Part shown: piece by piece, positions 4,115 through 64,000 of the stretch
How the letters are laid out: every line of letters starts with the position of its first letter
How positions within the stretch are numbered: the first letter of the stretch is position 1
Source of the DNA: Rhizophagus irregularis
Taxonomy: Eukaryota
Direction of reading: 5' to 3'
Assembly: GCF_026210795.1 (NCBI RefSeq)
Contig: NC_089430.1
Coordinates: 5,270,001-5,334,000, forward strand
DNA length: 64,000 nt
Made by a program: the position numbers and the translations under genes
Notes under the pieces: generated by a model
The model's database searches: none
The model's input: only the letters and a program-made list of their open reading frames with translations
Told to the model about the DNA's origin: nothing

Positions 4115-6251
4115 TTAAACGACAGAATCATCAAAAACTTCATCATTATCCTCCAATAATGATGAAGCTGAAGGGCCGCCAGATAACATGTTGTAAAGAG
4201 ATGACAGTAAGGATTTAGTTTCCTGGTGATTTTGTTGTATTTGCTTTTGTTGGGCAACAATACTTTGGATATTTTGATCAGATTTTTGGAATTGTTGCGA
4301 TTGAATAATAGATTTATTCGCAAGTTCATCTTCATCTTCACTTGATTCAGAATCACTTTTACGGCGTCTTTTCGCTTTAACTTCTGCACTATTATCTGAT
4401 TATTGATTTTTCTTTTTCTTACTAACTAAAACTGGATGCGCTTTATCACATTTAAGCGCTTGTTGAGCCGTGACAACCTCACCAATTTGCTTGCCAGTAT
4501 CACTAATGAGTGACTCCATATTGAGCAATTTATCTTCAACCTTCCTTATGGAATTAATAATTTGTTCCTTGAATTTTAAAAACATCGGATGGTTATTAAA
4601 ATCTTCATTATCGTCCTCATCATTATTATGATTGCTGCGAGCTTTTCCTTGATCACGTAATCCAGAGGGGATATTCTTATTAGACTTAGAACTATTTCTG
4701 GGCTTTTGTTTAGATTTAGCCGCATCCGCATATGACTTTTTTAAATTTTTCCAATTATCAGCACCATTAACAAACCGTTTAGAATGAGATTTGTTAATAT
4801 CTTTGTTAGTACAGTCTTTGGCCATATGAGTGGGATTACTGCAAATATTACAAATGCGATCTTCCTCTTTACTCCAATATAACTGCCGAGTACCAGCATT
4901 GCCCTTTTTGAATTCAATATTCATTTGTCTGGCTGCTAACAAATCATCTCGCGAAGAAAAATGAATGTAAGCATAACGACATCTTTGATATTTACCATGA
5001 ATCATAACAGCTGGGATGAAACAAGTTTTCCCTTTACATTGTGTCATAACTTCCTTAAGATCATAACCACTAGTTTGATAATGTAAACCTGATAATCTTA
5101 ATGAGAATTGCTTCCTTATCTCGCGTTCCTCCTTGCTCAATAACAGGGGTAAGACTCTAACTATGTCTTTATTAATATGATAGCTCCATTGCTCCTTAAA
5201 GTAATTAATAGAAGTAGCATCCTTATAAGTAATGAAAGCAACTTGGTAAAGACCAGCACCTCTCGTATAAATTTTCTTAATTTCGCCAAGATCTTCAAAG
5301 GACTCACAAATTTTGCGTACCTGTCGAAACACGGGAATATCGATCACTTGAATTGTACGACTATTGGAATTTTGTGATGTATCACTATCCTTTTCATTTG
5401 TAACAACCACCTTTTCAGGCCTTAATGGGGTAGGTTGGAGTTTCACATTAAACACTTCACCTGAATCACCTTCTTTTTGCTCCTGAATAACAAGTTCCAT
5501 TTTATTTTTCTTTATCCAAAAATAATACCTTGGCCCCTTGTTTCCCCAACGGGGTAACTGGAAGTTGTTTGTTATACTGGATATTATAGGTTTGTAGCGC
5601 CTTTTTAATTTTAGTAGTTTTTAAACCTTTTCCTCCAATAAGCTCACCGAATGGAACAAGTGCAATGTGCTCTTTTACTTTTTCTATAGTAACGATCGAT
5701 GGGTCTTTGTTAGAAATACTAGGATCAACATCCATGGGCTGGGACCCTTGATCGGCTTGCAGATTAATCTTTTCCTGATTAGGCAATACAACAGATTGTT
5801 GTTGATCCGTATGAGGAGTTGAAGTAATTTCTTTGTTAAGAGTTGGAACCTTATTGGTTCCATTCACGTTGTTAACAATATTCTGCGGAGGTAAGGGAGG
5901 GTCACGTGACAAATCTTTCGCGACCGCCTTGGACTTTTCAGTAGCTATTCCTTTGACGTTACCAGAAGGAGATTTGGAGTTTAAGCCATAAGTATCCTGA
6001 ACAATACTTTTTTCCATGTCCATAGCACGTTCCGCTTCCATGGCTTCTGTCATCTTTTTATCAGAAGTTGGTTGCAGCTTTTTTTGATATGTTTTCCAAA
6101 TACTCTCATGACGAGAAGCAGTTTCCTTCGGTGCACTGAAGGTGAACTGGTTTTCAGGACTAGTTGGCCTACTTCCACCTGCTTGGGAATTACGGCTTGA
6201 GCTACGTGTTTGTCTACCACCTCTACCACCTCGTTTAGCGTTTCCAGACAT
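4115..6251 (-). pseudogene. LINE-A ORF1 (RRM-like domains + CCHC zinc knuckle), disrupted
   Basis: CNICSNPTHMAKDC = CX2CX4HX4C; RRM-like RTIQVIDIPV...RYAYIHF; frameshift near 5501-5510; premature TAA 4400-4402; frame continues to TAA 4115-4117. Confidence 0.88.
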
Positions 6252-6606
6252 TTTCTATAGATTGTTAGATATTTACTGCGGATTTTAAGCGATTTTAACA
6301 ATTTGTAAGAAAGAGTTTTTTTCGGGTTTACAAATTCCGTATATTAAAACAATAAAAAGATATTATTGGGCGTTTTTTATAAAACTAGTAACGATTTTGT
6401 TGATCATTTGTTGATCATTTATTTTAAATTTATTATAAATTTTGTCACGAGATTTTCTATGGAAATCATTTCTCAATTTGTTATTAAAACACCTGCTGAA
6501 TTGCCTCGAAATTGAAAATCATTTCCCTTTTTATAAAAAAATTTCCTTTTTGGTAAAAAACTCAGATTAATCTTATATAACTTTATGTAAATGTCAATGT
6601 CAATGT

Positions 6607-8539
6607 GAAAAATGTAAAAAAAAAAACTTCTTCCCCAAATTATTAAAAACATAACAATTCCGCAGTAAAAATAATATTTTTACTCAGTTTTTTATTAATA
6701 TGGAAGATAGTAGAAAATATCCTATAGCCGAACATAAATTTCCTTATGGCTCCGGCGACGAATATAATTTTTTATTAAAAACATATCACCATTTTATAAA
6801 ATTTTGTGAAAGTCTAGCTTCTTCATTTTTTTCAGGTCATGACACAGAAGTTCAGCGTAATATACTGCGCTCTAATTTTGGCCTTTCAGATGAAGATATT
6901 AATAGTTGGAAAGAAAGGGCTTCACGCTACAACATGTCAACTGAAAGTTTCACATTTTTTCTACATATAGCAATATCCTCTGCGGTGGATGGTTTCCAAG
7001 CACGAAGGAAAGAATTAGAAACTATTGTAGATCACGTGACTAAATATAGAGAGACATCTAGCAAAAAGTCCAAAAAAATCGACAAAAAAAAGAAAAAGTC
7101 AAATAAATCCAAACACCGTTCCATAATTAATTCTGACGTAGATTCAGATGAATTAGATGATTTTCTTGATAAGGCAAATGAAGAGTTCGCTCATTTAAAT
7201 TTTTCTTCCGATGATCGAGATTCTAATATAAATCGGCCGATCGCGACAGCCTCTGGATCAAAAATGGATGTTGATCATCCGATTAATACAAATGAGTCAT
7301 CAAATACGGTCTTACAATCGGTACCTAATAAGCCTCAGTCGCAGCCTATACAAATACCGGAGAAAAGTATTACCGATTCAACAAAATCTTCAAATAAAAA
7401 TAAGAAGTTGAATAAACACCTTATCGAAAAAGTTATTACAGGTCATAAGCCAGCTGATGATGATACATCAAGAGTTAGAGATATTCTGGTTTACGACGTC
7501 CCAGTATCCTGGACGGCAGAATATATTCTGCAACAGTTAACGCTGTGGGGAAAGCCTATCGATATTCAGATGAAACAACAAAGAAAATATCAGACTGTTC
7601 GTTTGAAGATAGAGTTAAGTACCTTTCGTCTTGCCCAATTTGAAGTTAATGAAAATCCTGTGTGGACAACAGATTTAGGGGGGATACCGGTAAGATGGTT
7701 TCCAGCAAGGTGGACTCTCAAAGAACGAAAACAACGTGAGAAATTCCAAGCTACGATTAGAAAAATTCCAGATTCTATGACGTATGCAGCCTTATGGGTC
7801 GACCGTCTCCCACATACTTTTCTTTCTTCGGTTAGAGGGTTGAAAAGTTTTAAAATTATTCAAACAGCTCGGGGTGAACGTAAACTTATTGGTTATTTCG
7901 AAAAGTGGGTTGATATGCGGAATGCATTAGATAATCAATTCGTTTGGGATCATCAGTACCTATCTTGGAACCGATACGAACCTCCGATGCAACAAACAAG
8001 GTCGCATGGTAGTAATGCCAACAAGAACCAAGGAACTTCACGAAGTCAATCGACTAACAAACATCAACGAAATTCAAAGAATTCGAAGAAGAAACCAGAA
8101 GAGACGAAGTCTGAAAAGCCAAAGAAGCACAAGAAAGACAAGTCCCGTAAATCATCGAGATCGAAGGTCTTAGCGGAATTTATAGATGTTTTGCGTAAAC
8201 TAATAATTTAGGTTTTAGAATTGAGGGTAAAATAGTGGTTCAAAGGTGCCAATTTTATTTTTTTTCATAAAATTTTTATTCCTCGTTATTTTATCCATTT
8301 ATTTTCTGTTTGTTCGCCCTTTAGGGTTGATTTATTTTTTGTTTTTGTTTTTTTTCCCCCTTCCCCTTTTTATGGTCATATTCTTTATCCCAATTTTTAA
8401 GCCAGTAGGTCTTTAAATATTCGTTATTTTTAGATTAGCTGTTGTAGGTTACTCGCTGTTTACTTTTGTATTTGCATTTTGTTAACTTACATAACCATGT
8501 AAATTTTTCTTTTCTATTTAATAAAGTGTGATCGGTTTG

Positions 8540-8572
<33 letters not shown>
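6607..8572 (+). mobile_element. ORF1-only polyA retroelement (HAL1-like non-autonomous LINE derivative)
   Basis: Single ORF; AATAAA near 8520; 30-nt polyA 8543-8572; flanking direct repeat AAATGTCAATGTCAATGT (6589-6606, 8570-8587); uninterrupted paralogous site at about 10824-10910. Confidence 0.85.
6700..8211 (+). CDS. LINE ORF1-like protein, 503 aa, intronless, two RRM-like domains, Lys-rich segments, no CCHC knuckle
   Basis: Aligns by eye with LINE-A ORF1: RDILVYDVPV~RTIQVIDIPV; KYQTVRL~LYQVAFI; VRWFPARWTLKERKQREKF~VRVLPLLLSKEEREIRKQF; LSW~LYW. Confidence 0.82.
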   Translation: MEDSRKYPIAEHKFPYGSGDEYNFLLKTYHHFIKFCESLASSFFSGHDTEVQRNILRSNFGLSDEDINSWKERASRYNMSTESFTFFLHIAISSAVDGFQARRKELETIVDHVTKYRETSSKKSKKIDKKKKKSNKSKHRSIINSDVDSDELDDFLDKANEEFAHLNFSSDDRDSNINRPIATASGSKMDVDHPINTNESSNTVLQSVPNKPQSQPIQIPEKSITDSTKSSNKNKKLNKHLIEKVITGHKPADDDTSRVRDILVYDVPVSWTAEYILQQLTLWGKPIDIQMKQQRKYQTVRLKIELSTFRLAQFEVNENPVWTTDLGGIPVRWFPARWTLKERKQREKFQATIRKIPDSMTYAALWVDRLPHTFLSSVRGLKSFKIIQTARGERKLIGYFEKWVDMRNALDNQFVWDHQYLSWNRYEPPMQQTRSHGSNANKNQGTSRSQSTNKHQRNSKNSKKKPEETKSEKPKKHKKDKSRKSSRSKVLAEFIDVLRKLII

Positions 8573-8574
<2 letters not shown>

Positions 8575-8924
8575 TCAATGTCAATGTCAATGACAATGAC
8601 AATGAAAAAAACTTTTAATGCCAACTTTTCGCAAAAACTCTTCCTGTGCCACTAAAAGTCCCTGTTAAATTGTTGCATCATTCAATATTTGCATAATTTC
8701 ATTTTTTTGTTGATCATTAAAATTTCATAAAATATTGCAAAAAAATAAAAAAATTGTAAAAAAAAACGTTTCAGCGTTTTTTCATATAATATTATTAAAA
8801 AAAAATGCCAAAAACTTTTTTTTTTGCATTACTATTAAGAAAAAAACGTTTTGGCATTTTTCCATATAAAATTATAAAAAAAATAACACAAAAACATTTT
8901 TTCTTCATTTTTTATTTTTTTAAC

Positions 8925-9550
8925 AAAAAATGTCAAGACTGACGTTTTTAATTAAAAAAAACCAATATTTTTTTGATTTTTAATCACAAAAATGTCAAGT
9001 CTGACGTTTTTAATTAAAAAAATCATTTTTTTTTGATTTTTTAATTACAAAAATGTCAAGTCTGACGTTTTTAATTTAAAAAAAACCAATATTTTTTTAA
9101 TTTTTATTTTTTAATCACAAAAATGTCAAGTCTGACGTTTTTTAATTAAAAAAATCATTTTTTTGATTTTTTAATAACAAAAACGTCAAGTCTGATGTTT
9201 TTAATCAAAAAAATCATTTTTTTTGATTTTTTAATTACAATAACGTCAAGTCTAACGTTTTTAATCAAAAAATCATTTTTTTTTAATTTTTTAATTACAA
9301 AAACATCAAGTCTGACATTTTTAATCAAAAAAATCATTTTTTTTGATTTTTAATCACAAAAACATCAAGTCTGACATTTTTAATTAAAAAAAACCAATAT
9401 TTTTTTTGATTTTTAATCACAAAAACGTCAAGTCTGACGTTTTTAATAAAAAAATCATTTTTTTTGATTTTTTAATTACAAAAATGTCAAGTCTGACGTT
9501 TTTAACTAAAAAAATCAATTTTTTTGATTTTTAATTACAAAATTGTCAAA
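8925..9550. repeat. About 60-bp tandem array with internal hairpin (AAAAACGTCAAGTCTGACGTTTTT)
   Basis: Roughly ten degenerate units; subterminal array of the partial element copy. Confidence 0.9.
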
Positions 9551-9556
9551 TCTAAC

Positions 9557-11930
9557 TAGAGTAACTTGGTAATTATTAGTGAGTTATAATCATTATACTG
9601 TCAGATTGACTCGAAAATTTTGGGTCGGGTCATCAAACGTTTTTATAATTAAATATAAAAAAAATTGATTTTTTTATTAAAAACGTCAGACTTGACGTTT
9701 TTATGATTAAAAAATCATTTTTTACGTTAGATTTGATTAAAAATCAAAAAAATTGATTTTGTTGGTTAAAAATGTAAGACTTGGCGTTTTTGTAATTAAA
9801 AAATCAAAAAAAAAAATGATTTTATTAATTAAAAATGTCAGACTCGACGTTTTTGTAATCAAAAAATCAAAAAAATGTTTTTTTTAGTTAAAAACGTCAG
9901 ACATGACATTTTTGTGATTAAAAATAAAAAAAAATGTCAGACTTGACGTTTTTGTAATTAAAAAATCAAAAAAATGACTTTTTTAGTTAAAAAACGTCAG
10001 GCTTGACGTTTTTGTAATTAAAAAATCAAAAAAATGACTTTTTTAGTTAAAAAATGTCAGGCTTGACGTTTTTGTAATTAAAAAATCAAAAAAATGACTT
10101 TTTTAGTTGAAAAACGTCAGGCTTGACGTTTTTGTAATTAAAAAATCAAAAAAATGACTTTTTTAGTTGAAAAACGTCAGGCTTGACGTTTTTGTAATTA
10201 AAAAATCAAAAAAATGACTTTTTTAGTTGAAAAACGTCAGGCTTGACGTTTTTGTAATTAAAAAATCAAAAAAATGACTTTTTTAGTTGAAAAACGTCAG
10301 GCTTGACGTTTTTGTAATTAAAAAATAAAAATCAAAAAAATATTGGTTTTTTTTAATTAAAAACGTCAGACTTGACGTTTTTGTTATTAAAAAATCAAAA
10401 AAAAATGATTTTTTTAATTTAAAACGTCAGACTTTGACATTTTTGTGATTAAAAATCAAAAAAATATTAGTTTTTTTAATTAAAAACGTCAGTCTTGACA
10501 TTTTTTGTTAAAAAAATAAAAAATGAAGAAAAAACGTTTTTGTGTTATTTTTTTTATAATTTTATATGGAAAAATGCCAAAACGTTTTTTTCTTAATAGT
10601 AATGCAAAAAAAAAGTTTTTGGCATTTTTTTTAATAATATTATATGAAAAAATGCTGAAACGTTTTTTTTACAATTTTTTTATTTTTTTGCAATATTTTA
10701 TGAAATTTTAATGATCAACAAAAAAATGAAATTATGCAAATATTGAATGATGCAACAATTTAACAGGGACTTTTAGTGGCACAGGAAGAGTTTTTGCGAA
10801 AAGTTGGCATTAGAAGTTTTTTTCATTGTCATTGACATTGACATTGACATTGACATTGACATTGACATTGACATTGTCACTGACATTGACATTGTCATTG
10901 ACATTTACAATAAAGTTATATAAGATTAATCTGAGAGTTTTTTACCAAAAAGGAAATTTTTTATAAAAAGGGAAATGATTTTCAATTTCGAGGCAATTCA
11001 GCAGGTGTTTTAATAACAAATTGAGAAATGATTTCCATAGAAAATCTCGTGACAAAATTTATAATAAATTTAAAATAAATGATCAACAAATGATCAACAA
11101 AATCGTTACTAGTTTTATAAAAAACGCCCAATAATATCTTTTTATTGTTTTAACGTAAAAAATAATTTTTTGAATCATAAAAATATCAAATCTGACGTTT
11201 TTAATTAAAAAATCATTTTTTTTTGATTTTTTAATTAAAAAACGTCAAGTCTGACGTTTTTTAACTAAAAAAGTCATTTTTTTTGATTTTTTAATAACAA
11301 AAACGTCAGGTCTGACGTTTTTTAACTAAAAAAGTCATTTTTTTTTGATTTTTTAATTACAAAAACGTCAAGTCTGACGTTTTTTAACCAAAAAAAGTCA
11401 TTTTTTGATTTTTTAATTACAAAAATGTCAAGTCTGACATTTTTTAACTAAAAAAGTCATTTTTTTGATTTTTTAATTACAAAAACATCAAATCTGACGT
11501 TTTTAATTAAAAAAATCATTTTTTTTATTTTTAATCACAAAAATGTCATGTCTGACGTTTTTTAACTAAAAAAGTCATTTTTTTTTGACTTTTTAATTAC
11601 AAAAACGTCAAGTCTGATGTTTTTTAACTGAAAAAGTCATTTTTTTTTTGATTTTTTAATTACAAAAACGTCAAGCCTGACATTTTTTAACTAAAAAAGT
11701 CATTTTTTTGATTTTTTAATTACAAAAACGTCAAGCCTGACATTTTTTAACTAAAAAAGTCATTTTTTTGTTTTTTTTAATTACAAAAACGTCAAGTCTG
11801 ACATTTTTAATAAAAAAATCAATTTTTTTTATATTTAATTATAAAAACGTTTGATGACCCGACCCAAAATTTTCGAGTCAATCTGACAGTATAATGATTA
11901 TAACTCACTAATAATTACCAAGTTACTCTA
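9557..11930. mobile_element. Non-autonomous foldback-like DNA transposon, probably hAT
   Basis: TIRs over 100 bp (TAGAGTAACTTGG...CCAAGTTACTCTA); inverted subterminal 60-bp arrays at about 9660-10500 and 11180-11830; no credible ORF; flanks do not form a TSD. Confidence 0.85.
10824..10906 (+). repeat. (CATTGA/CATTGT)n hexamer microsatellite
   Basis: Directly visible; its inverted counterpart is the target of the ORF1-only element. Confidence 0.95.
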
Positions 11931-12149
11931 GTTTAATAAACAATTCATTTTTGAACATTTTTTAAAAAAACTAATGTATAAGAAATGTATACGGAAAAAA
12001 TTAATCATGCGGAATGTATACGGAATTTTTAAACTTAATATTTTTAGAAGATAATTTTACAAAAATCCCGTATCATAACACGAGATCACATGATTGTTTA
12101 TTGTTTTGTTATGATACGTTTTTTGTTTTTTATATAAACCCTTTGATCT

Positions 12150-13100
12150 TTCGATCTACCTTTCTGTCTTTCCTTTCCTTTCTCTTTCTCTTGTCTTATT
12201 TTTGTTATTTTTTCTAAATTTTTTTTCTTTCTTCGTCACCCCCTTTTAAAAATAATTTTTTTTTTCGTACCTCACTTTAAAAAAAATTTTTTTTCGTCAC
12301 TCTCCTTTGAAAAAAAATTTTTTTTCGTCACTCCCTTAAAAAAAAATTTTTTCTTTTATTCCTACTCTTCTTTTTTTTAAAAAAAATTTCTTCTTTCTAT
12401 TTCTATTTCCTCTTTATAAAAAATTTTTTATTTTTCTAACTTTGACGTCCTCCCTTTAAAAAAAAATTTTTTTTTAACTTTCCTAACTTCATTACCCCTC
12501 TTTTTAAAAAAGTATTTTTTTTTGGTTTATTCTTTATTCCCCTTTCTTTTTTATTTATATTTAATTTCATAGGCCAGCAGGTTTTTTTTTTGTGAGAATA
12601 TTCAGTTTCTTTTTTCTTTTTTTAGATCAGTTTGGGAGTCCTTTTCTTTTTGTAGGATGATTCAGGATTTTTTCTTTTTTTAGGTCAGTTCAAATTTTCT
12701 TGTTTTTTTGTAAGCTGGGTTCAGATTCTTTTCTTTTTGTAAGTTGTTTCAGTTTTGTTGCTTCAGAGTCTTCTTTTTTTTGTAGGTCAGTTTTGGATTT
12801 ATTTTGTTGTTTTGGTTTCTTTTTCATTAGACGCCTCATTATTCTTTTCTTTTATGTAGATCAGACATTCTGGAGTTCTCTTTCTTTTTTGTAGGAATGC
12901 TGACCTTTGGTGACTTGGACGATTGCAGATACTATATAAGGGGGGGTTTTGTTTCCAATCTTTTTTTTTGTTCTTTTAGGTTGTTTGACTTCAAATGAAC
13001 CTAAACCTATAGATAATTTTGGTTGCAATAGGTGGTTTTAATAAGGAGGGAATTTTCATAATGTATTTGTACTTTGTTTATTTTTTATTTTTTATTTAAT
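12150..13100 (+). repeat. Pyrimidine-skewed degenerate repeat region, probably interior of a non-autonomous element
   Basis: Units like TTTTTTCGTCACYCCYTTTAAAAAAA (12230-12510), then TTCTTTTTTGTAGGTCAG-like units (12560-12980). Confidence 0.55.
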
Positions 13101-13507
13101 TTAATAAAGTAAAATTAGATTTATGTAAATACAATTATAGTAAACTGTAATACAAATAGTAAATTCAGTGACCAAATCGTATAAATTTCGTGATAAAATC
13201 AGTGATCAAATCATATAAATTCCATATAAATCCCGTGCAAATTCTGTATCCAAACCATATTTTTAGTGATACAGAATTGTGCATTTTTCCGTATCCTATT
13301 ATGATAAGGAAAAAAATCGTATAAAAACTTTATAAAAAATGTATCCAATTTTTTTATAGGGATATTGTATGATAATAAAGATAGATAAAATAAATTCATA
13401 TCTTGCGTTTATTCATATGCATATATAAAATCTTCTATAAAAGATTTCAAATTTTACTAAATAAATACATTAATTAAAATATTGTTAAAATCCTTACACG
13501 TTCTGTA

Positions 13508-14043
13508 CACAGGTCGAAAAGTGAAAAATCAGGCATCAATCAGTCACCAATCGGTCACCAATCAGGTACCTGATTGGTGACCGATTGGTGACTGATTGGC
13601 ATTTTTGCCAAATACCGTCACCAATCAGGCAGTTTGCTAACTTTTGATCCAGTGATCAGAAAAGAATGAAATATAGCTCATTGGAATCGTCTCAACAAGA
13701 CGAATCTAATGGTAGTAAAATCGCATCTCTAGGATTAATAGTTAATAAAATATTAAATAAAATATAAATGATACATTTTATTTTTATATTTTACTTAATT
13801 TCTCATCAAGTATTAATCCTAGAAATGCGATTTTACTACCATTAGATTCGTCTTGTTGAGATGATTCCAATGAGCTATATTTCATCCTTTTCTGATCACT
13901 GGATCAAAAGTTAGCAAACTGCCTGATTGGTGACGGTATTTGGCGAAAATGCCAATCAGGCACCAATCAGTCACCAATCAGTCACCAATCAGCTACCTGA
14001 TTGGTGACTGATTGGTGCCTGATTTTTCACTTTTCGACCTGTG
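13508..14043. mobile_element. 536-bp near-perfect palindromic MITE with CAC ends and 3-bp TSD (CACTA/CMC-like)
   Basis: CACAGGTCGAAAAGTG...CACTTTTCGACCTGTG; GTA on both sides; empty paralogous site CACGTTCTGTATTT near 44677. Confidence 0.9.
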
Positions 14044-14365: not shown

Positions 14366-17300
14366 CTAGTTTATGATCTTTGTCCAAAACTTTTTTCTAT
14401 TCGATATTTTGAACCTAAAAAAAAAATAAAATAATATATTGAATACGAATAATATAAAACTTACATCTTAATATTCAGTTGAGAAATATTAATTTGTAAA
14501 GATTCTATTTAATAAAAAGTTTTATTAGTATCTTTAACTGATTTGCATTTTTAAAATAACAAAATTATTATTAATAATAATACCTGAAGATTCCTTGCTT
14601 ATTATATTATCATATTGTTCATCAGAATTTTTTATTTTAGGCCTACAAAAAAAAAATAGTATATTAAATATAAATAATATTATTAATCATTAATCAGATA
14701 ATTAAAAAACTTACATTTTATTATTATTCAATTGAGAAATATCAAGTTGTAAAGATTCTATTTAATAAAAAGTTTTATTAGTATCTTTAAAAACTGATTT
14801 GCATTTTAAATAACAAAATTATTAAATGATACCTGAAAATTTCTCGCTAATTATATTATCATTTTGTTCATAATAATCGTCGGAATTTTTTGGTTCAGGA
14901 AGATTATTAAAATCGAGTAATCTACTTGTATAAATAGCTTCTGAATGTGTATTATATGATATCCCTAAACTAGTTGAAGTTATACTGCTATTTGATGAAT
15001 TATTACTTATCTCATCTGCTTCCTTAATTTGTGCTCGTAATTCTATCGTTTGTTCATTATTAGATTCATATTGCCATCTAAATAAAATATTAATTATTTC
15101 TTTTGCTATTGGTCTGCTTAATGGGTTTGCATCTAAGCATCTTTTAATTAAATGTACAATTAATTGTGGTACTTTAATGTTAAACCTTGGTCTAAGTCCT
15201 TTGCAAATTTTTATTGCTAAATTATTATCATGTTTTAAATCATGATATGGGGGCAATCCAGAAATTACTTCATACATTATTATACCAAAACTATATATAT
15301 CGGCAGCTTTGGTATAATTTTGTCCTCTTAAAATTTCAGGAGCTATATAAGGTAAAACACCATATATCTTGTTTTTTGTACCTTCTAATTCATTAAATTC
15401 ATTATAATTTGCAGGTTTACATAATCCCATATCAGTTATAGCAGTTTTATATTTAAACTTTAAAATATTTCCAATATGCAAATCTCGATGAATAAATTCC
15501 TTTTCATGAATACATTTAAGTCCAACAATAATATACTGTAAATATTCAAACATTTTATTCCAGTTAAGCATATTATGTTCTTTGTCTAAATAATTTCGTA
15601 GATTTCCATCTTCTGCATATTCTAGGACCATTATATAATTTTTCGTTTTTGGATCCTGAGTTATTCCATAGAATCTAACAATTATATCATTATCCATTTT
15701 CACTTTATTATGCAGCATGATCTATGATGTAAATGTAAATATACAGTATATATTAGTAAAGCTAACAAAATCAAAAGTAATATTAGATTTATAAGATTAA
15801 TCAAATTATACCTCATTTATAAATTCTAATGTAACATTTTTTGAATTATCTAAACTTTTCAGAGCTACAAGCATATTTTCATTATACCTTTTCCGATTTT
15901 GATGTTCATTATTCCAATTAGTCATATACCCATCAATCCAATTTGCTCTATACACTTTGCCAAATCCACCTTTAGCAATATATTCAATATTATAAAATCT
16001 ATCATAAGGTATCCATTCTAATACTTCTTTTACATCTTTATGGGATGATAGCTGAGTATCTTGAATAAATTTATCAATATCATCATTACCACTAGTCCAA
16101 TCTATGAATTTATATTGAAAATTTATTGTGTTACATATACTATTACATTTTTTACATTTATTTTTCAAAACCAATAAATAACTTTTTGTTTCCAGATCTT
16201 GAGTTATCCCATAAAATTCATATTTTATTTTAATCTATAAATGTAATAATATTTAGTAAAATTAAAGTATTCAAAATTTACTAAATAATTTTATCATACC
16301 TTATTTGTAAATTTTAATGTAAGAGTAGTATTTAAGCTCTTCAAATTCACAATCATATTGTGACCTTCTCTTTTCCAATTTTGTTTTTTATAATCCCATT
16401 CACTTATGTATCCATCAATCCAATTTGCTCTATACACTTTTCCAAATTTATCTTTTGCTATATATTTAATATCATACAATCTATTGTTAGGTATCCATTC
16501 TAATGCTTTTCCTGTATTATCATGAGCTGATAGCTGAGTATCTTGAATAAATTTATCAATATAATTATTACCACTAGTCCAATCTATGAATTTATGTTGA
16601 AAGTTTATTGTGTTACATATACTATTACACTTTTTACATTTATTATTCAAAATCATTAAATAATAATTCTTTGTTTCTGGATATTGAGTTATTCCATAAA
16701 ATTTATATTCTATTTTAATCTATAAATGTAATAATACTTAGTAGAAATTAAAATATTCAAAATTTTGCTAAATAAATTTATCATACCTTATTTGTAAATT
16801 CTATTGTAACATTTTTTGAATTATTTAAATTCTTCAAGTTTACAAACATATTATAATTTTCTCTTTTCCAATTTTGATTTTTGCTATCCCAATTAGTTAT
16901 ATAACCATCAATCCAATTTGCTCTATACACTTTGCCAAATTCATCTTCTGCAATATATTTAATATTATATAATCTATCATAAGGTATCCATTCTAATGCA
17001 TCTTTTAAATCATTATGAGATGATGACTGAGTATCTTGAATAAATTTATCAATATCATTATAACCACTGGTCCAATCTATGAATTTATGTTGAAAGTGTA
17101 TTGTATTACATATACTATCACACTTTTTGCAATCATAATTCAAAACTATCATATAATTATCTGTTTCTGGATCTTGAGTTATTCCAAAAGGTATATTGAT
17201 CTACAAATACAAATATATTAGTAGAAATTAGAAACTTCAAAATTTTGTTAAATAAAAATTTATTACAGTACCTCATTTTCAAATTCTATTGTAATATTTT

Positions 17301-19128
17301 TTAAATTATTTACTCTCTTCAAATTTACAAGCCTATTATGATCTCTTTTCCAATTTTGATTATTATCATCCCAATAACTTATATTTCCATCAATCCAATT
17401 TGCTTTATACACATTACCAAACTTATTTTTTGCAATATCATCTAATCTATCATAAGGTATCCATTCTAATGCATTTGATATTTTACTATATCTATGAGCT
17501 AATAGCTGAGTATTTTGAATAAATTTATCAATATCATTATTACCACTAGTCCAATCTATAAATTTATGTTGAAAGTTTATTGTGTTACATATACTGTCAC
17601 ATTTTTTACATTTTTTATTCAAAACCATCATATAATTATTTGTTTCTGGATCCTGAGTTATTCCATAAAATTCATATTTTATTTTAATCTATAAAATGTA
17701 TTAATATTTAGTAGAAATTAAAATATTCAAAATTTTGCTAAATAAATTTATTATACCTTATTTGTAAATTCTATTGTAACATTTTTTGAATTATTTAAAT
17801 TCTTCAAATTCACAAACATATTATAATCTTCTCTTTTCCAATTTTGATTTTTGCTATCCCAATTATTTATACTACCATCAATCCAATTTGCTCTATACAC
17901 TTTGCCAAATTCATCTTCTGCAATATATTTAATATTATATAATCTATCATAAGGTATCCATTCTAATGCTTTCTTTATATTATTATGGGCTGACAGCTGA
18001 GTATCTTGAATCAATTTATCAATATCATTATTACCACTAGTCCAATCTATAAATTTATATTGAAAGTGTATTGTATCACACATTCTACTGTAACACTTTT
18101 TACATTTATTATTTAAAACCATCATATAATTTTTTGTTTCTGGATCTTGAGTTATTCCAAAAGGTATATTAATCTACAAATACAAATATCTTAGTAGAAT
18201 TAAAAACTTCAAAATTTATTGTATTAAATTTATTATACCTCATTTTCAAATTCTATTTTAATATTTTTTAAAGAATTTACTCTCTTCAAATTCACAAGCC
18301 TATTATGACCTTCTCTTTTCCAATTTTGATTTTTATCATCCCAATGTTTTATATTTCCATTAATCCAATTTGCTTTATACACGTTGCCAAACTTATTTTT
18401 TACAATATCATCCAGTCTATCATAAGGTATCCATTCTAATGCTTCATTTATATCTGCATTATCATGAGCTGATAGCTGAGTCTCTTGAATCAATATATCA
18501 ATATCATTATTACCACTAGTCCAATCTATAAATTTATGTTGAAAGTTTATTGTGTTACACACATTTCTATTACACTTTTTACATTTATTATTCAAAACCA
18601 TCATATAATTTTTTGTTTCTGGATCTTGAGTTATTCCAAAAGGTATATTGATCTACAAATACAAATATATTAGTAGAAATTAGAAACTTCAAAATTTTGT
18701 TAAATAAAAATTCATTATAGTACCTCATTTTCAAATTCTATTTTAATATTTTTTAAAGAATTTACTCTCTTCAAATTCACAAGCCTATTATGACCTTCTC
18801 TTTTCCAATTTTGATTTTTATCATCCCAATGTTTTATATTTCCATTAATCCAATTTGCTTTATACACGTTGCCAAACTTATTTTTTACAATATCATCCAT
18901 TCTATCATAAGGTATCCATTCTAATGCATTTGATATTTCACTGTTTTTATGAGCCATTAGCTGAGTATGTTGAATAAATTCATCAATATTATTATTACCA
19001 CTAGTCCAATTTTCAAAATTTTGTTGAAAATGAATTGCATTACATGTATAATTACATTTATTACATTTTTTAACATGTGATGATTTAATTAATTTATTAA
19101 TAACTTTGATAAAAGGGTTCATTGACAT
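14366..19128 (-). CDS. TKL-type kinase A with 7 tandem N-lobe modules (about 1329 aa)
   Basis: Exons 19128-18724, 18652-18239, 18173-17757, 17688-17272, 17200-16787, 16719-16300, 16234-15812, kinase exon 15721-14833, tail 14757-14715, 14642-14584, 14504-14465, 14414-14366; all GT-AG and in frame; GGFGKVY, VALK, HRDLHIGN, DMG, APE, DIYSFG. Confidence 0.9.
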
Positions 19129-24700: not shown

Positions 24701-25147
24701 ATTTTTTGAAATGCGTTTATTCATATATAAAATCTTCTATAAAATAATTTTAAAAGATTTCGAATTTTATCAAATAAATACAATAATAATAAAATGAATA
24801 CAAATATAATTTAAATAACTGATCATTAAAATTTAAAACCCTGTTTAACGTAATTCTCAAAAAAAAATTTGCCTATTAGTGAAAAAAAAACAAAAAAAAA
24901 AAATACACTAACTCAACGTTAATATTTAAAAAAACTGATGTTAAACAGAGCTTTAAATTGTAATGATTTAAATAAAAAAAAAGTTTTCAAAAAAAAAAAA
25001 AAAAAATAGTAAACTAGTTTATAACCTTGTTTAAACCTTTATCTGTGGTTATTAAATTCGATATTTTGAACCTAAAAAAAAAAATAATATAATATATTGA
25101 ATATGAATAATACTCATTATTAACCACATGAATTAAAAACTCACATC

Positions 25148-28100
25148 TTAATTAATACCTCCATTGAGGAAATTAATTTGTAAAGATTCTATTTAATAAA
25201 AAGTCTTATTAGTAACTTTAAAAAACTGATTTGCATTTTAATAACAAAATTATTAGATGATACCTGAAAATTCCTTGCTAATTATATTATCATTTTGTTC
25301 ATAATAATCGTCAGAATTTTTTGGTTCAGAAAGATTATTAAAATTGAGTAATCTACTTGTATAAATAGCTTCTGAATGTGTATTATATGATATCCCTGAA
25401 TTAGTTGAAATTATACTGCTATTTGATGAATTATTGTTTTTCTCATCTGTTTCTTTAATTTGTGCTCGCAATTTTACTGTTTGTTCTTTATTTGGTTCAT
25501 ATTGCCATATGTATAAAATGTCGTTAATTTTTTCCGCTTTCGGTCGATTTGATGGAACAGCATCTAAACATTCCTTAATTAAAGATACAATTAATTGTGG
25601 CACTTTAATGTTAAACCAAGGTCTTAACCCTTGGCAAATTTTTAATGCCAAATTATTATCATGTTCTAAATTGTGATATGGGGGCAATCCAGATATTACT
25701 TCATATATTATTATGCCAAAACTATAAATATCAGAAGCTTTGGTATAATTTTGTCCTCTTAAAACTTCAGGAGCTATATAAGGTAAAACACCATATATGT
25801 TGTTTTTTGCATTTTCTAATTCATTATAATTTGCAGGTTTACATAATCCCATGTCAGCTATAGCAGTTTTATATTTAAACTTTAATATATTTCCAATATG
25901 CAAATCTCGATGAATTAATTCCTTTTCATGAATACATTTAAGTCCAAGTATAATATCTCGTAAATAATCAATTTTTTTACTCCAATTAAGCTTACTATAT
26001 TCTTTATCTAAGTAATTTCGTAAACTTCCATTTTCCGCATAATTTAAAACCATCATATAATTTTTTGTTTCTGGATCTTGAGTTACTCCATAAAATTCAG
26101 CAATATAATTAGTATTTATTCCTCCTTTGTTATGTGACGCAATCTATGTGAAAGTAATAATATAAAATATATTGGCAAAATTAAAATTTTAGGTATTATG
26201 AATATAACAATAAATTTATTTAATCAATTACCTCATTCATAAATTCTAATGTAACATTTTTTGAATTATCCAAACTTTTCAGAGCTATAATCATATTTTG
26301 ATTATATCTTTTCCAATTTTGATCTTTAATATTCCAATTAGACATATATCCATCAATCCAATTTGCTTTATATATTTTGCCAAATCCACCTTTTGCAATA
26401 TATTCAATATTATAAAATCTATCGTAGGGAATCCATTCTAATACGTTCTTTATATCGTCATCGTCGTGAGCTAATAGTTGAGTATCTTGTATAAATTTAT
26501 CAACATTATTATTACCGCTAGTCCAATCTAAAAATTTCTGTTGAAAGTGAATTGTATTACATATATCATTACATTTTTCACATATATTATTTAAAACCAT
26601 CATGTAACTTGTTGTTTCTGGATCTCGTGTTATACCATAAATTCTATATTCCATTTTAATCTATAAATGTAATAATGTTTTAGTAAAATCTAAATATTTA
26701 AAATTCATTAAATATATATATAATAAGTTTATCATACCTTATTTGTAAATTCTAATGTAAGATTACCCGAATTATTTAAACTTTTCAAATTCACAAACAT
26801 ATTATGACCTTTTCTTTCCCAATTTTGATTTTTATCATCCCAATTATTTATATTTCCATCAATCCAAATTACTCTATACGCTTTGCCAAATTCATCTTTT
26901 GTAATATGCAATCTTTCATAAGGTATCCATTCTAACGCTTCATTTACATCTCTAACAGATAATAGCTGAGCATCTTGAATAAATTTATCAATATCATCAT
27001 TACCACTGGTCCAATTTTTAAAATTTTGTTGAAAATGTATTGCATAACACGCGCAATTACATTTTTTACATTTATTACTATCCAAAACCATCATATAATG
27101 TTTTGTTTCTGGATCTCGAGTTATTCCATAGGGTTGATTGATCTACACATACAAAATATATTAGTAAAAATTAAGAACTTCAAAATTTTGTTAAATAAAA
27201 ATTTATTATAGTACCTCATTTTCAAATTCTTCTGCAATATTTTTTAAATCATTTACTCTCTTCAAATTCACAAGCCTATTATGACCTTCTCTTTTCCAAT
27301 TTTGATTTTTATCATCCCAATAACTTATATTTCCATCAATCCAATTTACTTTATGCACTTTACCAAATTCATCTTTTGTAATATGCAATCTATCATAAGG
27401 TATCCATTCTAACGCTTTATTTACATCATTAGCAGAAAATAGCTGAGCATCTTGAATAAATTTATCACTATCATCATCACCGCTGGTCCAATTTTTAAAA
27501 TTTTGTTGAAAATGTATTGCATAACATGCATAATTACATTTTTTACATTTATTACTATCCAAAACCATCATATAATGTTTTGTTTCTGGATCTTGAGTTA
27601 TTCCATAGGGTTTACGGATCTAACACACACAAAATATATTTAGTAAAAATTAAGAACTTCAATTTTGTAATAAGAAATTATTATACCTCATCATTAAATT
27701 CTGTAATATTTTTTGGATCATTTAAATTCTTCAAATACACTAACATATTACAACCTTCTCTTTTCCAACATTGATTTTTATCATCCCAATAACTTATATT
27801 TCCATCGATCCAATTTACTCTATCTTTTGTAATATGCAATCTATCATAAGGTATCCATTCTAACACTTCATTTACATCTTTAGCAGAAAATAGCTGAGTA
27901 TCCTGAATAAATTTATCAATATCATCATTACCACTGGTCCAATTTTCAAAATTTTGTTGAAAATGTATTGCATAACATGCACAATTACATTTTTCACATT
28001 TATTACTATCCAAAACCATCATATAATGTTTTGTTTCTGAATCTCGAGTTATTCCATTGGGTTTATTGATCTACACATACAAAATGTATTAGTAAAAATT

Positions 28101-28537
28101 AAGAACTTCAAAATTTTTGTTAAATTAAAGACTTATTATACCTCATTTGTTAATTCTATTGTAATATTTTTTAGATTATTTAAATTCTTCAAATATATTA
28201 ACATATTATGACCTTCTCTTGTCCAATTTTGATTTTTATCATCCCAACAACTTATTTTTCCATCAATCCAATTTGCTTTATATACTTTGCCAAGCTTATT
28301 TTTTGTAATATCATCCAGTCTATTATAAGGTATCCATTCTAATGCATTTGATATTTCATTGTCTTTATGAGCCATTAGCTGAGTATGTTGAATAAATTCA
28401 TTAATATCATTATTACCACTAGTCCAATTTTCAAAATTTTGTTGAAAATGTTTTGCATTACATGTATAGTTACATTTTTCACATTTCTCAACATGTGATG
28501 ACTTAATTGGTTCCTTATCTTTGATAACAGTACTCAT
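25148..28537 (-). CDS. TKL-type kinase B with 5 tandem N-lobe modules (about 979 aa)
   Basis: Exons 28537-28142, 28070-27687, 27619-27215, 27142-26738, 26660-26232, kinase exon 26143-25264, tail 25188-25148; GGFGKIY, IALK, HRDLHIGN, DMG, APE. Confidence 0.9.
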
Positions 28538-33834: not shown

Positions 33835-36180
33835 ATGGAAGATGATGGATCAAAAAATAATAAAAAAGATGATTTCGCTGAAAATTTAAAAGACAGTTCT
33901 TTAATGGTTGTTCCATTTGCAAGATTTCTTCCTTTAATTAATGAAATTGAAAATTTTTTTAACGAAATCATCGAATTAGTGGAAGCTGCTGAACATAATC
34001 AACGAACTTGTGAAATATTAAAAAATCGAGTTCGTGTTGCAGAATTAGCCGTACGAGATCTTAGAGATAAAAAAAAAGACAGAGAAGATTTTTTTAATAA
34101 AATAAATTATATACGTTTACAAGAATTATCTACTATTATAAAACAAATTAAAAAATTTATATCAGAAATCTCTCTAATGAAAACTTTGATAAAATACCTT
34201 AAAGAGAAAAGTGTTGAGAAAATTTTTAAAAAATTATGTATGGAATTCGACAGTTGTATTAACTTATTGTCTTTTTCTTTTAACGTTGAAATTGCTGATG
34301 AACTTGAACAATTAAAATCCGATCAAGATGATTTATTTAAAGTAAGATTAAAAAAATTGAGTTTTATTATTGAAACATAAAATTAATTTATATTATTTTA
34401 ATAAATTATAGTATCTACAAGGAATGGTGGCTGGTATTGATGATAACGACTGCTTCGCAGACTCAAGTAAAAAGTTTTTTTCAACAATTGTAAAAGTTAA
34501 TGCAATGAATAATACAATGATAGGAAAATTTAAAAGTCAAACAAAAATTAGTGATGTCTTTCAGGTACATCCACTAGAATTTTCTGATTATGAAATTGAT
34601 GATAATGGGAAAACAGATGAATATAGACGTGTAAATAAATGGTATAAAAAAACAAATAAAGGTGCTGAATTCGCTTTTAAAACTATCTCTGGAGAGGACG
34701 AAGTGATTGTACAAAAACAAGTTGCAATTCTTAAAGAACTTCATGATTGGCAAAACATCATAAAATTTCACGGAATGATTTCTGATGGAAATCAATGGTA
34801 TTTGGTGACTGAATGGGCCGAACGTGGAAATTTGCGTGAATTTTATCAAAATAAAAATTATATCGACCTTAAATCAAAATTACGTATATCTCTTGATATT
34901 GCTCGTGGATTAAATTTTTTAAGAACTGTAGAGGTAATTATATAACCAGCTTTTATTTAATTAACGAAAAATTTTTTTTTTAATTTTTTTTTTTAGATTT
35001 TTCATCGAGATATTAGGGCTGAAAATATATTAATTACACTTAATGAGACAGCAAAACTTGCAAATTTCAAATTAATTCGTTCCCAACCCGGCGGACAGGC
35101 TATATGTTTTCCAAACCTAAACTTAGACCAAACTCGTTATTGTGCACCTGAATTGTTGGAGGGGGTGCTAAATTACAAACATGAACAAAGATGTGGTGAG
35201 GTTTATAGTTTTGGAATCTTACTTTGGGAAATTGCTGAAGAAAGAATTCCACATCAGGGTATTAATGGTATTAGGGATATAATTGATAAGGTATGTAATA
35301 AAAAGTATAGAGAACCATTTTCTGAAAATAGTCAAATGCCAGAAAAATTCAAACAATTAGAAATTGAAGGTATGTAAAAGAAAATATTTTAAATTACAAT
35401 TTTATTTGTTGTACTTAATTGGTTTCTTTTTTTTTACATATTTTTTTAGCCGTTCATCATGATCCAGATTTTAGGCCAAAAATCACGAAAATATTTGAAG
35501 TTCTTAATAATTGTTTCAAGGAATATTCACAAGTTACATCAAGTTCTAGTGGCCCAAACCTAAGAGGAAACAGTAGAAACAACTCTATGCAAAAGTCTCG
35601 TCCAAAACGAGCAGACAACATTGATGCATACGCCCTTCCAGATCTTGAATCATTTAAATATATGACACTTGCTGATGCAGAAAAACAACATAAGTTGTAT
35701 AATAATCATGATAAACTAGTTGGAGATGTAATAACTGCATATAAATGTTTTGAAGCTTATGCAAACCTTGGTAATACAGGAGGTACAGCAAACCGTAATC
35801 AAATCAAAGCAAAATATTATAAAGCATATTACATTTCAAAAGAATTGATTGAGGACCCTACAAATAAAGATGAAATTGTTGCTGAATTATTTAAAGAAGT
35901 TGCTAATGATGAAGCAAATGGATTCCCTGAAGCAAAATTAAGATATGGAGATTGTTTGTATCATGGCAAAGGTGTTGATCAAAATTTTTCAGAAGCTCTT
36001 AAATATTTAGAAAAAGCTGCTGAAGATGGTTTTAAAGTAGCAATGTATAACACTGGAGGTATGTATTACAATGGTATTGGTTGTACGAAAGATATAGAAA
36101 AAGCTAAATATTATATGAAATTAGCTGCTTATGGTGATTATGAACTTGCTATTAAATTTTGTAAGGAACATGACATATAA
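33835..36180 (+). CDS. MLKL-like protein: N-terminal four-helix bundle (HeLo-like) + pseudokinase + Sel1-like repeats (710 aa)
   Basis: Exons 33835-34341, 34412-34933, 34997-35369, 35450-36180, in frame; helical NTD LINEI...AEHNQRTCEILKNRV; kinase fold FAFK, HRDIRAEN, NFK for DFG, YCAPE, EVYSFG; Sel1 YGDCLYHGKGVDQNFSEA and GGMYYNGIGCTKDIEKA. NTD identity is recognition, not a search result. Confidence 0.85.
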
Positions 36181-56993: not shown

Positions 56994-57031
<38 letters not shown>

Positions 57032-57311
57032 GAAGTCAACTTTATTTAGAAATAAGAAAAATTACAAAAAAGGAAAAGATCTACATTATATAACATTTAG
57101 TAAAGAACACGATCGAACTAGTACTATAATATTATTAGGGACTTAAGATTTTATGTTCAAAAGAACTATCTACCATCCTGCTCACCCAAATAGGTTCACT
57201 AAACTATCCGCATAACTACTACTATTCGTATGGACTTCGGTAATGTTATATAAAAACTCACCACAACTCCTTTAATTACTACTACAACATCAAAAGATAA
57301 TAAAAATAATA

Positions 57312-63300: not shown

Positions 63301-63768
63301 TCCATAATAATTAATGATTCTCATTTTTTTATTTCCACTAAAAATAAAATTAACATATATAATTCTTCCTTTGAAGCTATTATAATTGACTATATGCCGT
63401 GCATAATTTTTCTTAATAATAAGACCTACGCCATTTCCCCTATAATTAGTTTCCTCATTTGCAAAATAAGTAACATAATTATTTCTATAAAAATTAAAAG
63501 AATGTTTTGCCATTTTGTTCGATATATTAGTTTCTGATAGACCCAAAATAGTTATATTATATTCACCTAATATATCAATTAAGAATTGTTTTTTAACATC
63601 AGTTATACCTTTAAGCTATTTTAATTATATCTGATAAATTGAGTCGTTGACGTGTTTTCGGATGATAAATTTGTTGATTATTTAAATTTGAACGTGATTT
63701 TTGATTAACAGGGGAAGGATTATTATAATGTTTTTCTTAAAAGAATGTGTTTTTTTATTGTTCATCAT
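57312..63768 (-). pseudogene. LINE-B ORF2 (APE, RT, RNase H, C-terminal Cys/His motif), disrupted
   Basis: GLSETN, LGDFN, SRIDYIW, TDH; GIDQGE, AYMDDT; RNase H YTDGS, RAE, YTDS, KVNAH; CPMC-X8-H-X3-C. Frameshifts near 63730 and 61150, a deletion near 63613 removing the APE TxN motif, and a MITE at 58445. Confidence 0.93.
58445..59402. mobile_element. 958-bp hAT-type non-autonomous element
   Basis: TIR TAGAGCTCCGAA; perfect 8-bp TSD GCTAGCAC; (CAGGT)n subterminal repeats; internal ~52-bp hairpin units AAAAGTGAATCGCAATACYGCAACTCACTTTT. Confidence 0.95.
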
Positions 63769-63791
63769 TAAAGATAATATTTAAAGGGTAT

Positions 63792-64000
63792 TTAATCCTC
63801 ATGGGATTCATTATTGTCAATAATTTTATCCCCTTGAAAATTATTAACGTCATTATTATTGTCAGAAGTAAAATATTCCATAATTTTTGAGATATTTTTA
63901 CTCATAGTTGATAAAGCATCACCGAATCTATTGATTTCGTTATTTTGTTTATTTAAACTATTTTCTATATCTGAAGATCCTGAGGCTTCAAGTTGTTCAT
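63792..64000 (-). CDS. LINE-B ORF1 C-terminus (partial)
   Basis: Open frame EQLEASGSSDIENSLNK...NESHED ending TAA 23 nt before the ORF2 ATG. Confidence 0.7.
   Translation of the reverse strand, partial: EQLEASGSSDIENSLNKQNNEINRFGDALSTMSKNISKIMEYFTSDNNNDVNNFQGDKIIDNNESHED

What the first reader, a model, noticed from the sequence alone, without database searches (positions are those of the whole stretch)
6607..8572. Intact ORF1-only retrotransposon (HAL1-like half-LINE) in a fungus
Seen: intronless 503-aa ORF homologous to but very divergent from the adjacent LINE ORF1, no ORF2, ~330-nt 3' UTR, AATAAA, pure 30-nt polyA, ~18-bp TSD, and an empty paralogous site inside the window. The ORF is intact while both LINEs are broken, suggesting a recent insertion. 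Known: HAL1 elements encode only ORF1 and borrow LINE ORF2. Inference: an independent fungal family that annotation would call a hypothetical host gene.
Basis: partly seen in the sequence, partly recalled or inferred. Interest (0 to 1): 0.8.

Follow-up and report, generated by a model that had tools for sequence, protein, structure and literature searches.

The report
Half-LINE retrotransposons of mycorrhizal fungi
A 2-kb piece of DNA in a mycorrhizal fungus, filed in databases as a hypothetical host gene, carries the marks of a retrotransposon insertion but encodes only one protein, predicted to bind RNA, so it likely borrows its copying enzyme from full-length LINE elements, a way of life so far described in animals.

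Summary
Observation confirmed; interpretation supported, with corrections. Window 6607-8572 holds an intact 503-aa ORF, a 331-nt 3' UTR, AATAAA, A30 and an exact 18-bp duplication; an empty paralogous site lies 2 kb away. The protein belongs to a large, old family of Rhizophagus and Glomus 'hypothetical proteins' (696 hits), with 8 near-identical models on 6 contigs of one assembly. It is predicted to hold two RRMs, is remotely related to the neighbouring LINE's ORF1 (profile E 3e-7) and lacks that ORF1's zinc knuckle (0 of 318). It shares a 5' motif with the LINE at the same spacing. A relative is 5'-truncated with its own poly(A) and 14-bp duplication; no relative shows ORF2 downstream. It works like HAL1 or HeT-A but is not shown to be HAL1. 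Not shown: distinct flanks of the near-identical copies, or mobilisation in trans. My literature searches found no fungal case; this scan noted such elements before only in animal genomes.

The parts
6589..6606 (+). Left copy of the 18-bp target-site duplication, inside an (AATGTC)n microsatellite of a host repeat
6607..6699 (+). 5' UTR: 9 extra bases (6607-6615), A11 (6616-6626), C/T-rich stretch, conserved motif
   Evidence: homologous 5' UTR with another flank in L002
6659..6667 (+). Motif TCCGCAGTA, CCGCAG core 33 nt after the A-run; candidate internal-promoter element (inferred)
   Evidence: 2 matches in 64 kb, here and in the LINE1 5' UTR; 0.04 expected; same spacing in L002, L005
6700..8211 (+). 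Intact 503-aa ORF1-like protein
6760..7068 (+). Predicted N-terminal helical region (aa 21-123) ending in a long helix
   Evidence: AlphaFold2, pLDDT about 60-93
7474..7965 (+). Two predicted tandem RRM domains (aa 259-335 and 349-422); no CCHC knuckle after them
   Evidence: (PABP RRM1-2, Z 9.6, 163 aligned, rmsd 4.5)
8158..8199 (+). Conserved C-terminal helix (aa 487-500) after a basic disordered linker
8212..8542 (+). 3' UTR, 331 nt, AATAAA at 8520-8525
8543..8572 (+). Pure A30 tail
8570..8587 (+). Right copy of the 18-bp target-site duplication
6344..6588 (+). Left flank: unique core of a host repeat into which the element is inserted
10450..11153 (-). Empty paralogous copy of the host repeat core (microsatellite 10824-10909 uninterrupted)
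6274..6322 (-). 5' UTR of the neighbouring full LINE (LINE1): A7, C/T-rich stretch, TCCGCAGTA at the same spacing
4400..6251 (-). LINE1 ORF1 (broken by frame changes; RRM region plus CCHC knuckle), the remote homologue and candidate partner family

Best explanation
This is a likely young copy of an old family of ORF1-only elements of Glomeraceae fungi: it carries a poly(A) tail, a target-site duplication and one intact gene for a predicted two-RRM protein, and it likely moves by borrowing the endonuclease and reverse transcriptase of a full-length LINE. Steps. (1) Shown: insertion marks, empty site, many copies, no ORF2, purifying selection on the ORF. (2) Shown by profiles: the RRM region is related to the ORF1 of the LINE family next door, and both 5' UTRs begin with the same A-run, C/T-rich stretch and motif. 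(3) Inferred: the family arose once, long ago, from a LINE by loss of ORF2 and of the ORF1 zinc knuckle. (4) Inferred: it is transcribed by RNA polymerase II from an internal promoter and polyadenylated at AATAAA; its protein coats its own RNA in cis, which is why selection keeps it; LINE ORF2p nicks T-rich DNA and primes on the poly(A) tail (target-primed reverse transcription).
For: Exact 18-bp duplication, A30, empty paralogue with 244 of 244 and 374 of 378 matching positions. 8 models of one assembly on 6 contigs differing by 1-14 of 369 aa; full-length database copies 96.2-98.8% identical. 696 proteins at E<=0.001; named members in R. irregularis, R. diaphanus, R. clarus and Glomus cerebriforme. 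L007: 5'-truncated at about aa 325, A-tail, 14-bp duplication (chance of a 12-nt match about 1e-4). L002: homologous 5' UTR, unrelated flank. Of 7 loci, 4 hold 270-382 nt after the stop, with no same-strand ORF2 and no open frame over 69 aa; in LINE1 the last piece of ORF1 ends about 13 nt before the ORF2 start. Core profile hits LINE1 ORF1 at E 3.1e-7 (25.9 bits; next frame 4.1) and 31 of 41 of its relatives; best of 861 shuffled or reversed controls 5.2 bits; HHalign 83%, E 9e-6. Motif: 2 found, 0.04 expected. dN/dS 0.03-0.21 in 6 of 6 comparisons, 0.13 in the two with dS under 1. A poly(A)-RNA library holds an unspliced 843-nt contig over 7341-8183 (not proof of transcription).
Against: No genome was held, so the flanks of the near-identical copies were not seen. 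In 2 of 4 runs laid (X1, X5) one contig runs from the same left flank into the element, which fits one copy, one preferred site, or spread with the host repeat. The 18-bp duplication lies in a microsatellite. L001 ends in (TAAA)n with no duplication, and L003 lacks the A-run and motif. The ORF1 homology is remote and covers about 96 columns. No shared 3' tail with a LINE is shown: whole 3' UTR against LINE2 p 0.70; last 62 nt p 0.0025, but that stretch holds AATAAA, the general poly(A) signal of this fungus; LINE1's 3' end lies outside the window. Only 7 metagenome loci were found, all on contigs of 1.3-3 kb.
Confidence: 0.84

Rival explanations
1. The ORF is the ORF1 of an autonomous LINE not seen here; these inserts are recurrent products of early polyadenylation between ORF1 and ORF2.
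For: ORF1 homology and a LINE-like 5' UTR. Only short contigs were available, so full elements could be missed.
Against: 4 of 4 informative loci plus the window have a long non-coding 3' UTR and no ORF2. None of 93 candidates of 882-2515 aa matched the core (weak by the tool's own note), whereas the LINE1 family has a 1223-aa ORF1-ORF2 fused model (P0376). 0 of 318 family proteins carry a CCHC knuckle (182 of them reach at least 25 aa past RRM2), against 20 of 41 LINE1 ORF1 relatives.
Confidence: 0.06
2. The copies are processed retrocopies of a host RNA-binding gene (possibly an ORF1 domesticated long ago), not a self-propagating family.
For: Purifying selection, presence in RNA libraries, ordinary mRNA-like 3' end, and database models that show introns.
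Against: Several divergent subfamilies are each multi-copy (clusters of 11-26 members). The 'introns' are pieces of the same open frame with differing borders, and RNA contigs cross them unspliced. The 5' motif is shared with a LINE. Full-length family profiles hit no solved host RRM protein up to E 10.
Confidence: 0.06
3. One retrotransposition put this copy into a foldback-like DNA repeat, and the young near-identical copies were spread with that repeat or by segmental duplication. This concerns the spread of this subfamily only.
For: The host repeat is itself repeated and young (161-bp terminal repeats about 98% alike). Contigs of 2 of 4 runs cross the same left junction. Another database locus has a 98.8% copy with an accession number next to an ORF1 model of the LINE1 family.
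Against: At that locus the LINE ORF1 is only 88-89% identical to the window's while the element is 98.8%, which a single recent duplication would not give. L002 and L007 show independent insertions of relatives.
Confidence: 0.15

Closest known systems
HAL1 (half-L1) of mammals (passages of PMC5753468; Bao and Jurka 2010 not held)
   Same: Non-autonomous, encodes only ORF1p; poly(A) tail, target-site duplication and 5' truncation fit the same route of insertion.
   Different: Fungal; protein has two RRMs related to a type I (RRM plus CCHC) ORF1, not the mammalian coiled-coil/RRM/CTD type (types from passages of PMC4120745); no Pfam family at E<=0.1; parent clade not shown to be L1; very deep divergence from any LINE seen.
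ORF1-present bipartite non-autonomous LINEs: HeT-A, HAL1, Ag-Sponge (passage of PMC5786205)
   Same: One ORF1-type protein, no RT; the paper suggests such proteins multimerise with those of the autonomous partner.
   Different: Those named are from insects and mammals. Here a shared 5' motif is seen but a shared 3' part is not shown, and the zinc knuckle is lost.
EKA family of Blumeria powdery mildew (abstract and section 6 of PMC4641428)
   Same: Fungal multi-copy gene family that comes from LINE ORF1 and was first taken for host genes.
   Different: As described there, EKA members are full or truncated ORF1s of degenerate Kryze/Satine LINE copies, with signs of positive selection; here the unit is a discrete 1.9-kb element with its own 3' end and duplication, under purifying selection.

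Membership tests
HAL1 (half-L1) | Encodes only ORF1p, no ORF2 | tested here: met
   Window and 4 informative loci; no long fused protein (weak)
HAL1 (half-L1) | Derived from an L1-clade LINE | tested here: inconclusive
   The window's LINE2 ORF2 scores 60 bits to human L1 ORF2p and 56 to R2: no clade call. No RT tree was built; LINE1's RT was not searched.
HAL1 (half-L1) | Mammalian L1-type ORF1p (coiled coil, single RRM, CTD) | tested here: not met
   Model shows two tandem RRMs; related LINE ORF1 has a CCHC knuckle
HAL1 (half-L1) | Mammalian host | tested here: not met
   Named homologues are Glomeraceae fungi, apart from two labels that look like contamination
ORF1-present non-autonomous LINE (HeT-A/HAL1/Ag-Sponge type) | Protein corresponds to a LINE ORF1p | tested here: met
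   Profile E 3.1e-7 against controls of at most 5.2 bits; HHalign 83%; remote, RRM1 plus linker only
ORF1-present non-autonomous LINE (HeT-A/HAL1/Ag-Sponge type) | Keeps the 5' part of an autonomous LINE | tested here: met
   5' UTR alignment p 0.0015 without the A-run; shared 9-mer at equal spacing
ORF1-present non-autonomous LINE (HeT-A/HAL1/Ag-Sponge type) | Keeps the 3' part of an autonomous LINE | tested here: inconclusive
   Against LINE2: whole UTR p 0.70, last 62 nt p 0.0025 but includes the general poly(A) signal; LINE1 3' end not in the window
ORF1-present non-autonomous LINE (HeT-A/HAL1/Ag-Sponge type) | Dispersed copies with marks of target-primed reverse transcription (poly(A), duplication, 5' truncation) | tested here: met
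   Window and L007; 8 models on 6 contigs; flanks of those 8 not seen; L001 lacks a duplication
ORF1-present non-autonomous LINE (HeT-A/HAL1/Ag-Sponge type) | Mobilised in trans by a LINE's ORF2p | not testable with these tools
   Needs a retrotransposition assay

The most novel reading that the evidence does not exclude
An ancient, self-standing lineage of LINE parasites, older than the Rhizophagus-Glomus split, that has kept a knuckle-less two-RRM ORF1 under selection across many subfamilies, is tied to its helper LINE by a shared promoter motif rather than by a shared tail, and follows the helper into the same host repeats; its copies make up hundreds of supposed lineage-specific 'orphan genes' of mycorrhizal fungi.
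Probability: 0.35. Interest if true: 0.75.

Novelty: new variant of a known kind. Interest (0 to 1): 0.58.

Why it matters
ORF1-only retrotransposons are described from mammals and insects. A fungal lineage that is old, diverse and likely still active would show that this parasitic strategy can last as a lineage of its own, and it offers a clean system to ask why a passenger RNA keeps its own ORF1. It also matters for mycorrhizal genomics: about two-thirds of repeats in R. irregularis are unclassified, the curated library keeps only elements with a transposition domain (section 5 of PMC11075540) and so would be expected to drop this family, and its copies stand in databases as hypothetical genes with introns drawn through the RRMs, which can inflate counts of lineage-specific genes.

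Tried and rejected
No genome held, so no genome-wide BLASTN. Pfam: no family for the ORF, and only scattered low-complexity hits among 65 members. First profile from a loose 65-sequence alignment did not reach LINE ORF1 (domain E 0.05); first HHalign gave 35%, E 4e-4; both improved only with more diverse members. ESM Atlas: best score 0.83, a lead only. AlphaFold model of LINE1 ORF1 too poor to compare (mean pLDDT 43); its strand and helix order resembles two RRMs, a hint only. No human L1 ORF1p structure stood among the listed fold matches; that excludes nothing. Viral and prokaryote collections held no relative. Rfam: 0 matches in 6300-12000. Read depth cannot give copy number. In one search none of 4 RNA-labelled runs showed a splice joint, and none covered the host-repeat flanks or the last 230 nt of the element; absences in contigs prove nothing. 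Several unnamed contigs with near-full ORFs are 1.8-1.9 kb, about one element long, but needing a whole ORF biases lengths, so this was given little weight. 3' UTRs of L003 and L007 do not align with the window's better than shuffles (p 1.0, 0.48). The tree shows the family as one group far from LINE1 ORF1s, but with one LINE family as outgroup it cannot name the parent. Literature: searches found no ORF1-only element in Glomeromycota; 'ORF1' does not occur in the main text of the four AM-fungal papers searched by term nor in the one supplement held for PMC11075540. Repbase, Dfam, the GitHub repeat library, bioRxiv supplements and subscription journals were not searchable and may hold a consensus of this repeat.

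Full report
Setting. The window is A+T-rich (mostly 18-30% G+C), holds kinase and Sel1 genes and two broken LINEs, and its proteins match Rhizophagus irregularis records. No genome was held for it.

The insert. The ORF at 6700-8211 is open for 503 codons and is 37% G+C, like LINE1 ORF1 (37%) and unlike the flank (22%). A 331-nt UTR with one AATAAA leads to A30. An 18-bp sequence is repeated exactly at 6589-6606 and 8570-8587. It lies in an (AATGTC)n microsatellite, so I checked the empty site: the reverse strand of about 10450-11153 matches the left flank at 244 of 244 and the right flank at 374 of 378 aligned positions and has an unbroken, longer microsatellite where the insert sits. Loose ends at 6606 in runs X5 and X8 continue as microsatellite, as an empty site would. 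Nothing like ORF2 follows in 8212-14000.

The family. A protein search gave 93 hits among 5078 candidates, named from R. irregularis, R. diaphanus, R. clarus and Glomus cerebriforme; a profile search gave 696 at E<=0.001 and 150 at 1e-30. One cluster holds 8 models of one assembly on 6 contigs, differing by 1-14 of 369 residues; full-length copies elsewhere are 96.2-98.8% identical to the window's. Other subfamilies, about 60% identical or far less, are multi-copy too (clusters of 11-26 members). dN/dS was 0.03-0.21 in 6 of 6 pairs; four have dS above 1.5, the other two give 0.13.

The protein. AlphaFold2 predicts an N-terminal helical part, a long disordered stretch, two compact domains (aa 259-335, 349-422, pLDDT about 90), a basic linker and a conserved last helix. 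Fold searches return tandem-RRM proteins (NONO/SFPQ, PABP; best Z 9.6, 163 aligned, rmsd 4.5). Pairwise similarity to LINE1 ORF1 is marginal (E 0.006). A core profile from 72 members and the query finds LINE1 ORF1 as the only other significant frame in the window (25.9 bits, E 3.1e-7; next 4.1) and 31 of 41 of its relatives, while 861 shuffled or reversed controls reach 5.2 bits. Profile against profile gives 83%, E 9e-6, over RRM1, the linker and the first strand of RRM2. Full-length family profiles hit no solved RRM protein up to E 10 (a looser control, as the profiles differ). No family protein has a CCHC knuckle (0 of 318; 182 extend past RRM2), against 20 of 41 LINE1 ORF1 relatives. Type I ORF1s have RRMs directly before a knuckle (passages of PMC4120745), so this looks like a type I ORF1 that lost its knuckle (inference).

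Relatives in DNA. Seven metagenome loci were found. L007 begins near residue 325, ends in an A-tail and is bounded by a 14-bp duplication; random pairs from its flank gave a 12-nt match about once in 10,000. L002 has a homologous 5' UTR that starts at the same A-run behind an unrelated flank. Four loci hold 270-382 nt after the stop without same-strand ORF2; one holds only 11 nt and two end inside the ORF. L001 ends in (TAAA)n, has no duplication and abuts 42 nt of RT-like sequence on the opposite strand (E 0.003-0.008). No protein of 882-2515 aa matched the core (0 of 93 candidates, weak), whereas LINE1's family has an ORF1-ORF2 fused model.

The element and LINE1 lie head to head, and both 5' UTRs start with an A-run, a C/T-rich stretch and TCCGCAGTA; that 9-mer occurs twice in 64 kb against 0.04 expected. 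Its core lies 33, 34, 36 and 33 nt after the A-run in the element, LINE1, L002 and the distant L005; L001 has a variant and L003 has none. An internal promoter element near +30 is known for Drosophila LINEs (recalled, from no call), so that is my reading; a splice-acceptor-like role is not excluded. The 3' ends give no such link: whole UTR against LINE2 p 0.70, last 62 nt p 0.0025, and AAUAAA is the usual signal in this fungus (section 7 of 10.1101/2022.10.19.511543).

Expression and the 'introns'. Database models P0003 and P0108 equal the window protein with residues 269-402 or 259-402 left out, at GT..AG borders; other models skip other stretches. A contig from a poly(A) RNA library covers 7341-8183 without a gap, across both borders, and contigs of two more runs cross the acceptor. 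These introns are therefore likely artefacts of prediction, though minor splicing is not excluded, and contigs in RNA libraries do not prove transcription.

Mechanism. Shown: insertion marks, copies, ORF1 kinship, shared 5' motif, selection. Inferred: transcription from an internal promoter, binding of the protein to its own RNA, and reverse transcription primed on the poly(A) tail by a LINE's ORF2p. Open: whether the near-identical copies have different flanks. In runs X1 and X5 a contig runs from this same flank into the element, and another database locus has a 98.8% copy numbered next to a LINE1-family ORF1 that is only 88-89% identical; L003 and L005 carry divergent members behind one shared flank (87.5% over 144 nt). 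Together these hint at preferred target repeats shared with the LINE, but accession order gives no distance.

Comparison. HAL1 encodes only ORF1p and arose several times in mammals (passages of PMC5753468); HeT-A and Ag-Sponge are the insect cases (passage of PMC5786205). This element works like them but is not HAL1 by host or ORF1 type, and its parent clade is unresolved. The fungal EKA family is ORF1-derived but is described as degenerate LINE copies (abstract and section 6 of PMC4641428). Ten literature searches found no ORF1-only element in these fungi; repeat databases were not searchable. Of PMC8647823, PMC11952901 and PMC11075540 I saw passages, and of the last also section 5 and a term search of its supplement. 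Earlier notes of this scan describe ORF1-only families in octopus, shark, ray and mammals; look-ups by sequence, place and fungal words found nothing.

Verdict. Real, and very likely an ORF1-only retrotransposon family of Glomeraceae: a known strategy in a kingdom where I found no record of it, with its own features (age, lost knuckle, shared 5' motif). Confidence 0.84, interest 0.58.

Noticed in passing
window 9554-11933: Foldback-like, non-coding repeat of 2.4 kb: terminal inverted repeats about 98% alike over 161 bp, long arms of 60-bp tandem units, a unique core with the microsatellite. A second copy to its left took both LINE1 and the ORF1-only insert about 280 bp apart. Likely a non-autonomous DNA transposon; family not identified.
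   Followed up: partly
window 7504-7905 and 7474-7905: Many database gene models of this family draw GT..AG introns through the RRMs (for example 342, 359 and 369 aa forms); an RNA-library contig crosses the stretch unspliced.
   Followed up: partly
L003 1-131 and L005 1222-1365: Two divergent family members sit behind the same flank sequence (87.5% over 144 nt), a hint of a preferred target repeat.
   Followed up: no
window 56997-64000 (minus strand): LINE2: endonuclease, RT, RNase H and zinc-binding pieces, split by a frame change and stops, with a pure A32 tail; its 5' part lies beyond the window.
   Followed up: partly
window 14450-19070, 25060-28490, 45340-53320: Three paralogous kinase genes, each preceded by 4-14 tandem units of about 480 bp that encode a repeated exon block.
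   Followed up: no
window 33835-36180: Gene pieces with MLKL N-terminal-like, kinase and Sel1 domains, a possible cell-death or immune-type kinase.
   Followed up: no
L001 2334-2375: The member's (TAAA)n tail abuts an RT-like fragment on the opposite strand.
   Followed up: no
proteins P0064 and P0126: Family members labelled Anthurium amnicola ('EAF3') and Acinetobacter baumannii (365-bp contig); both are likely fungal contamination and mis-naming.
   Followed up: no
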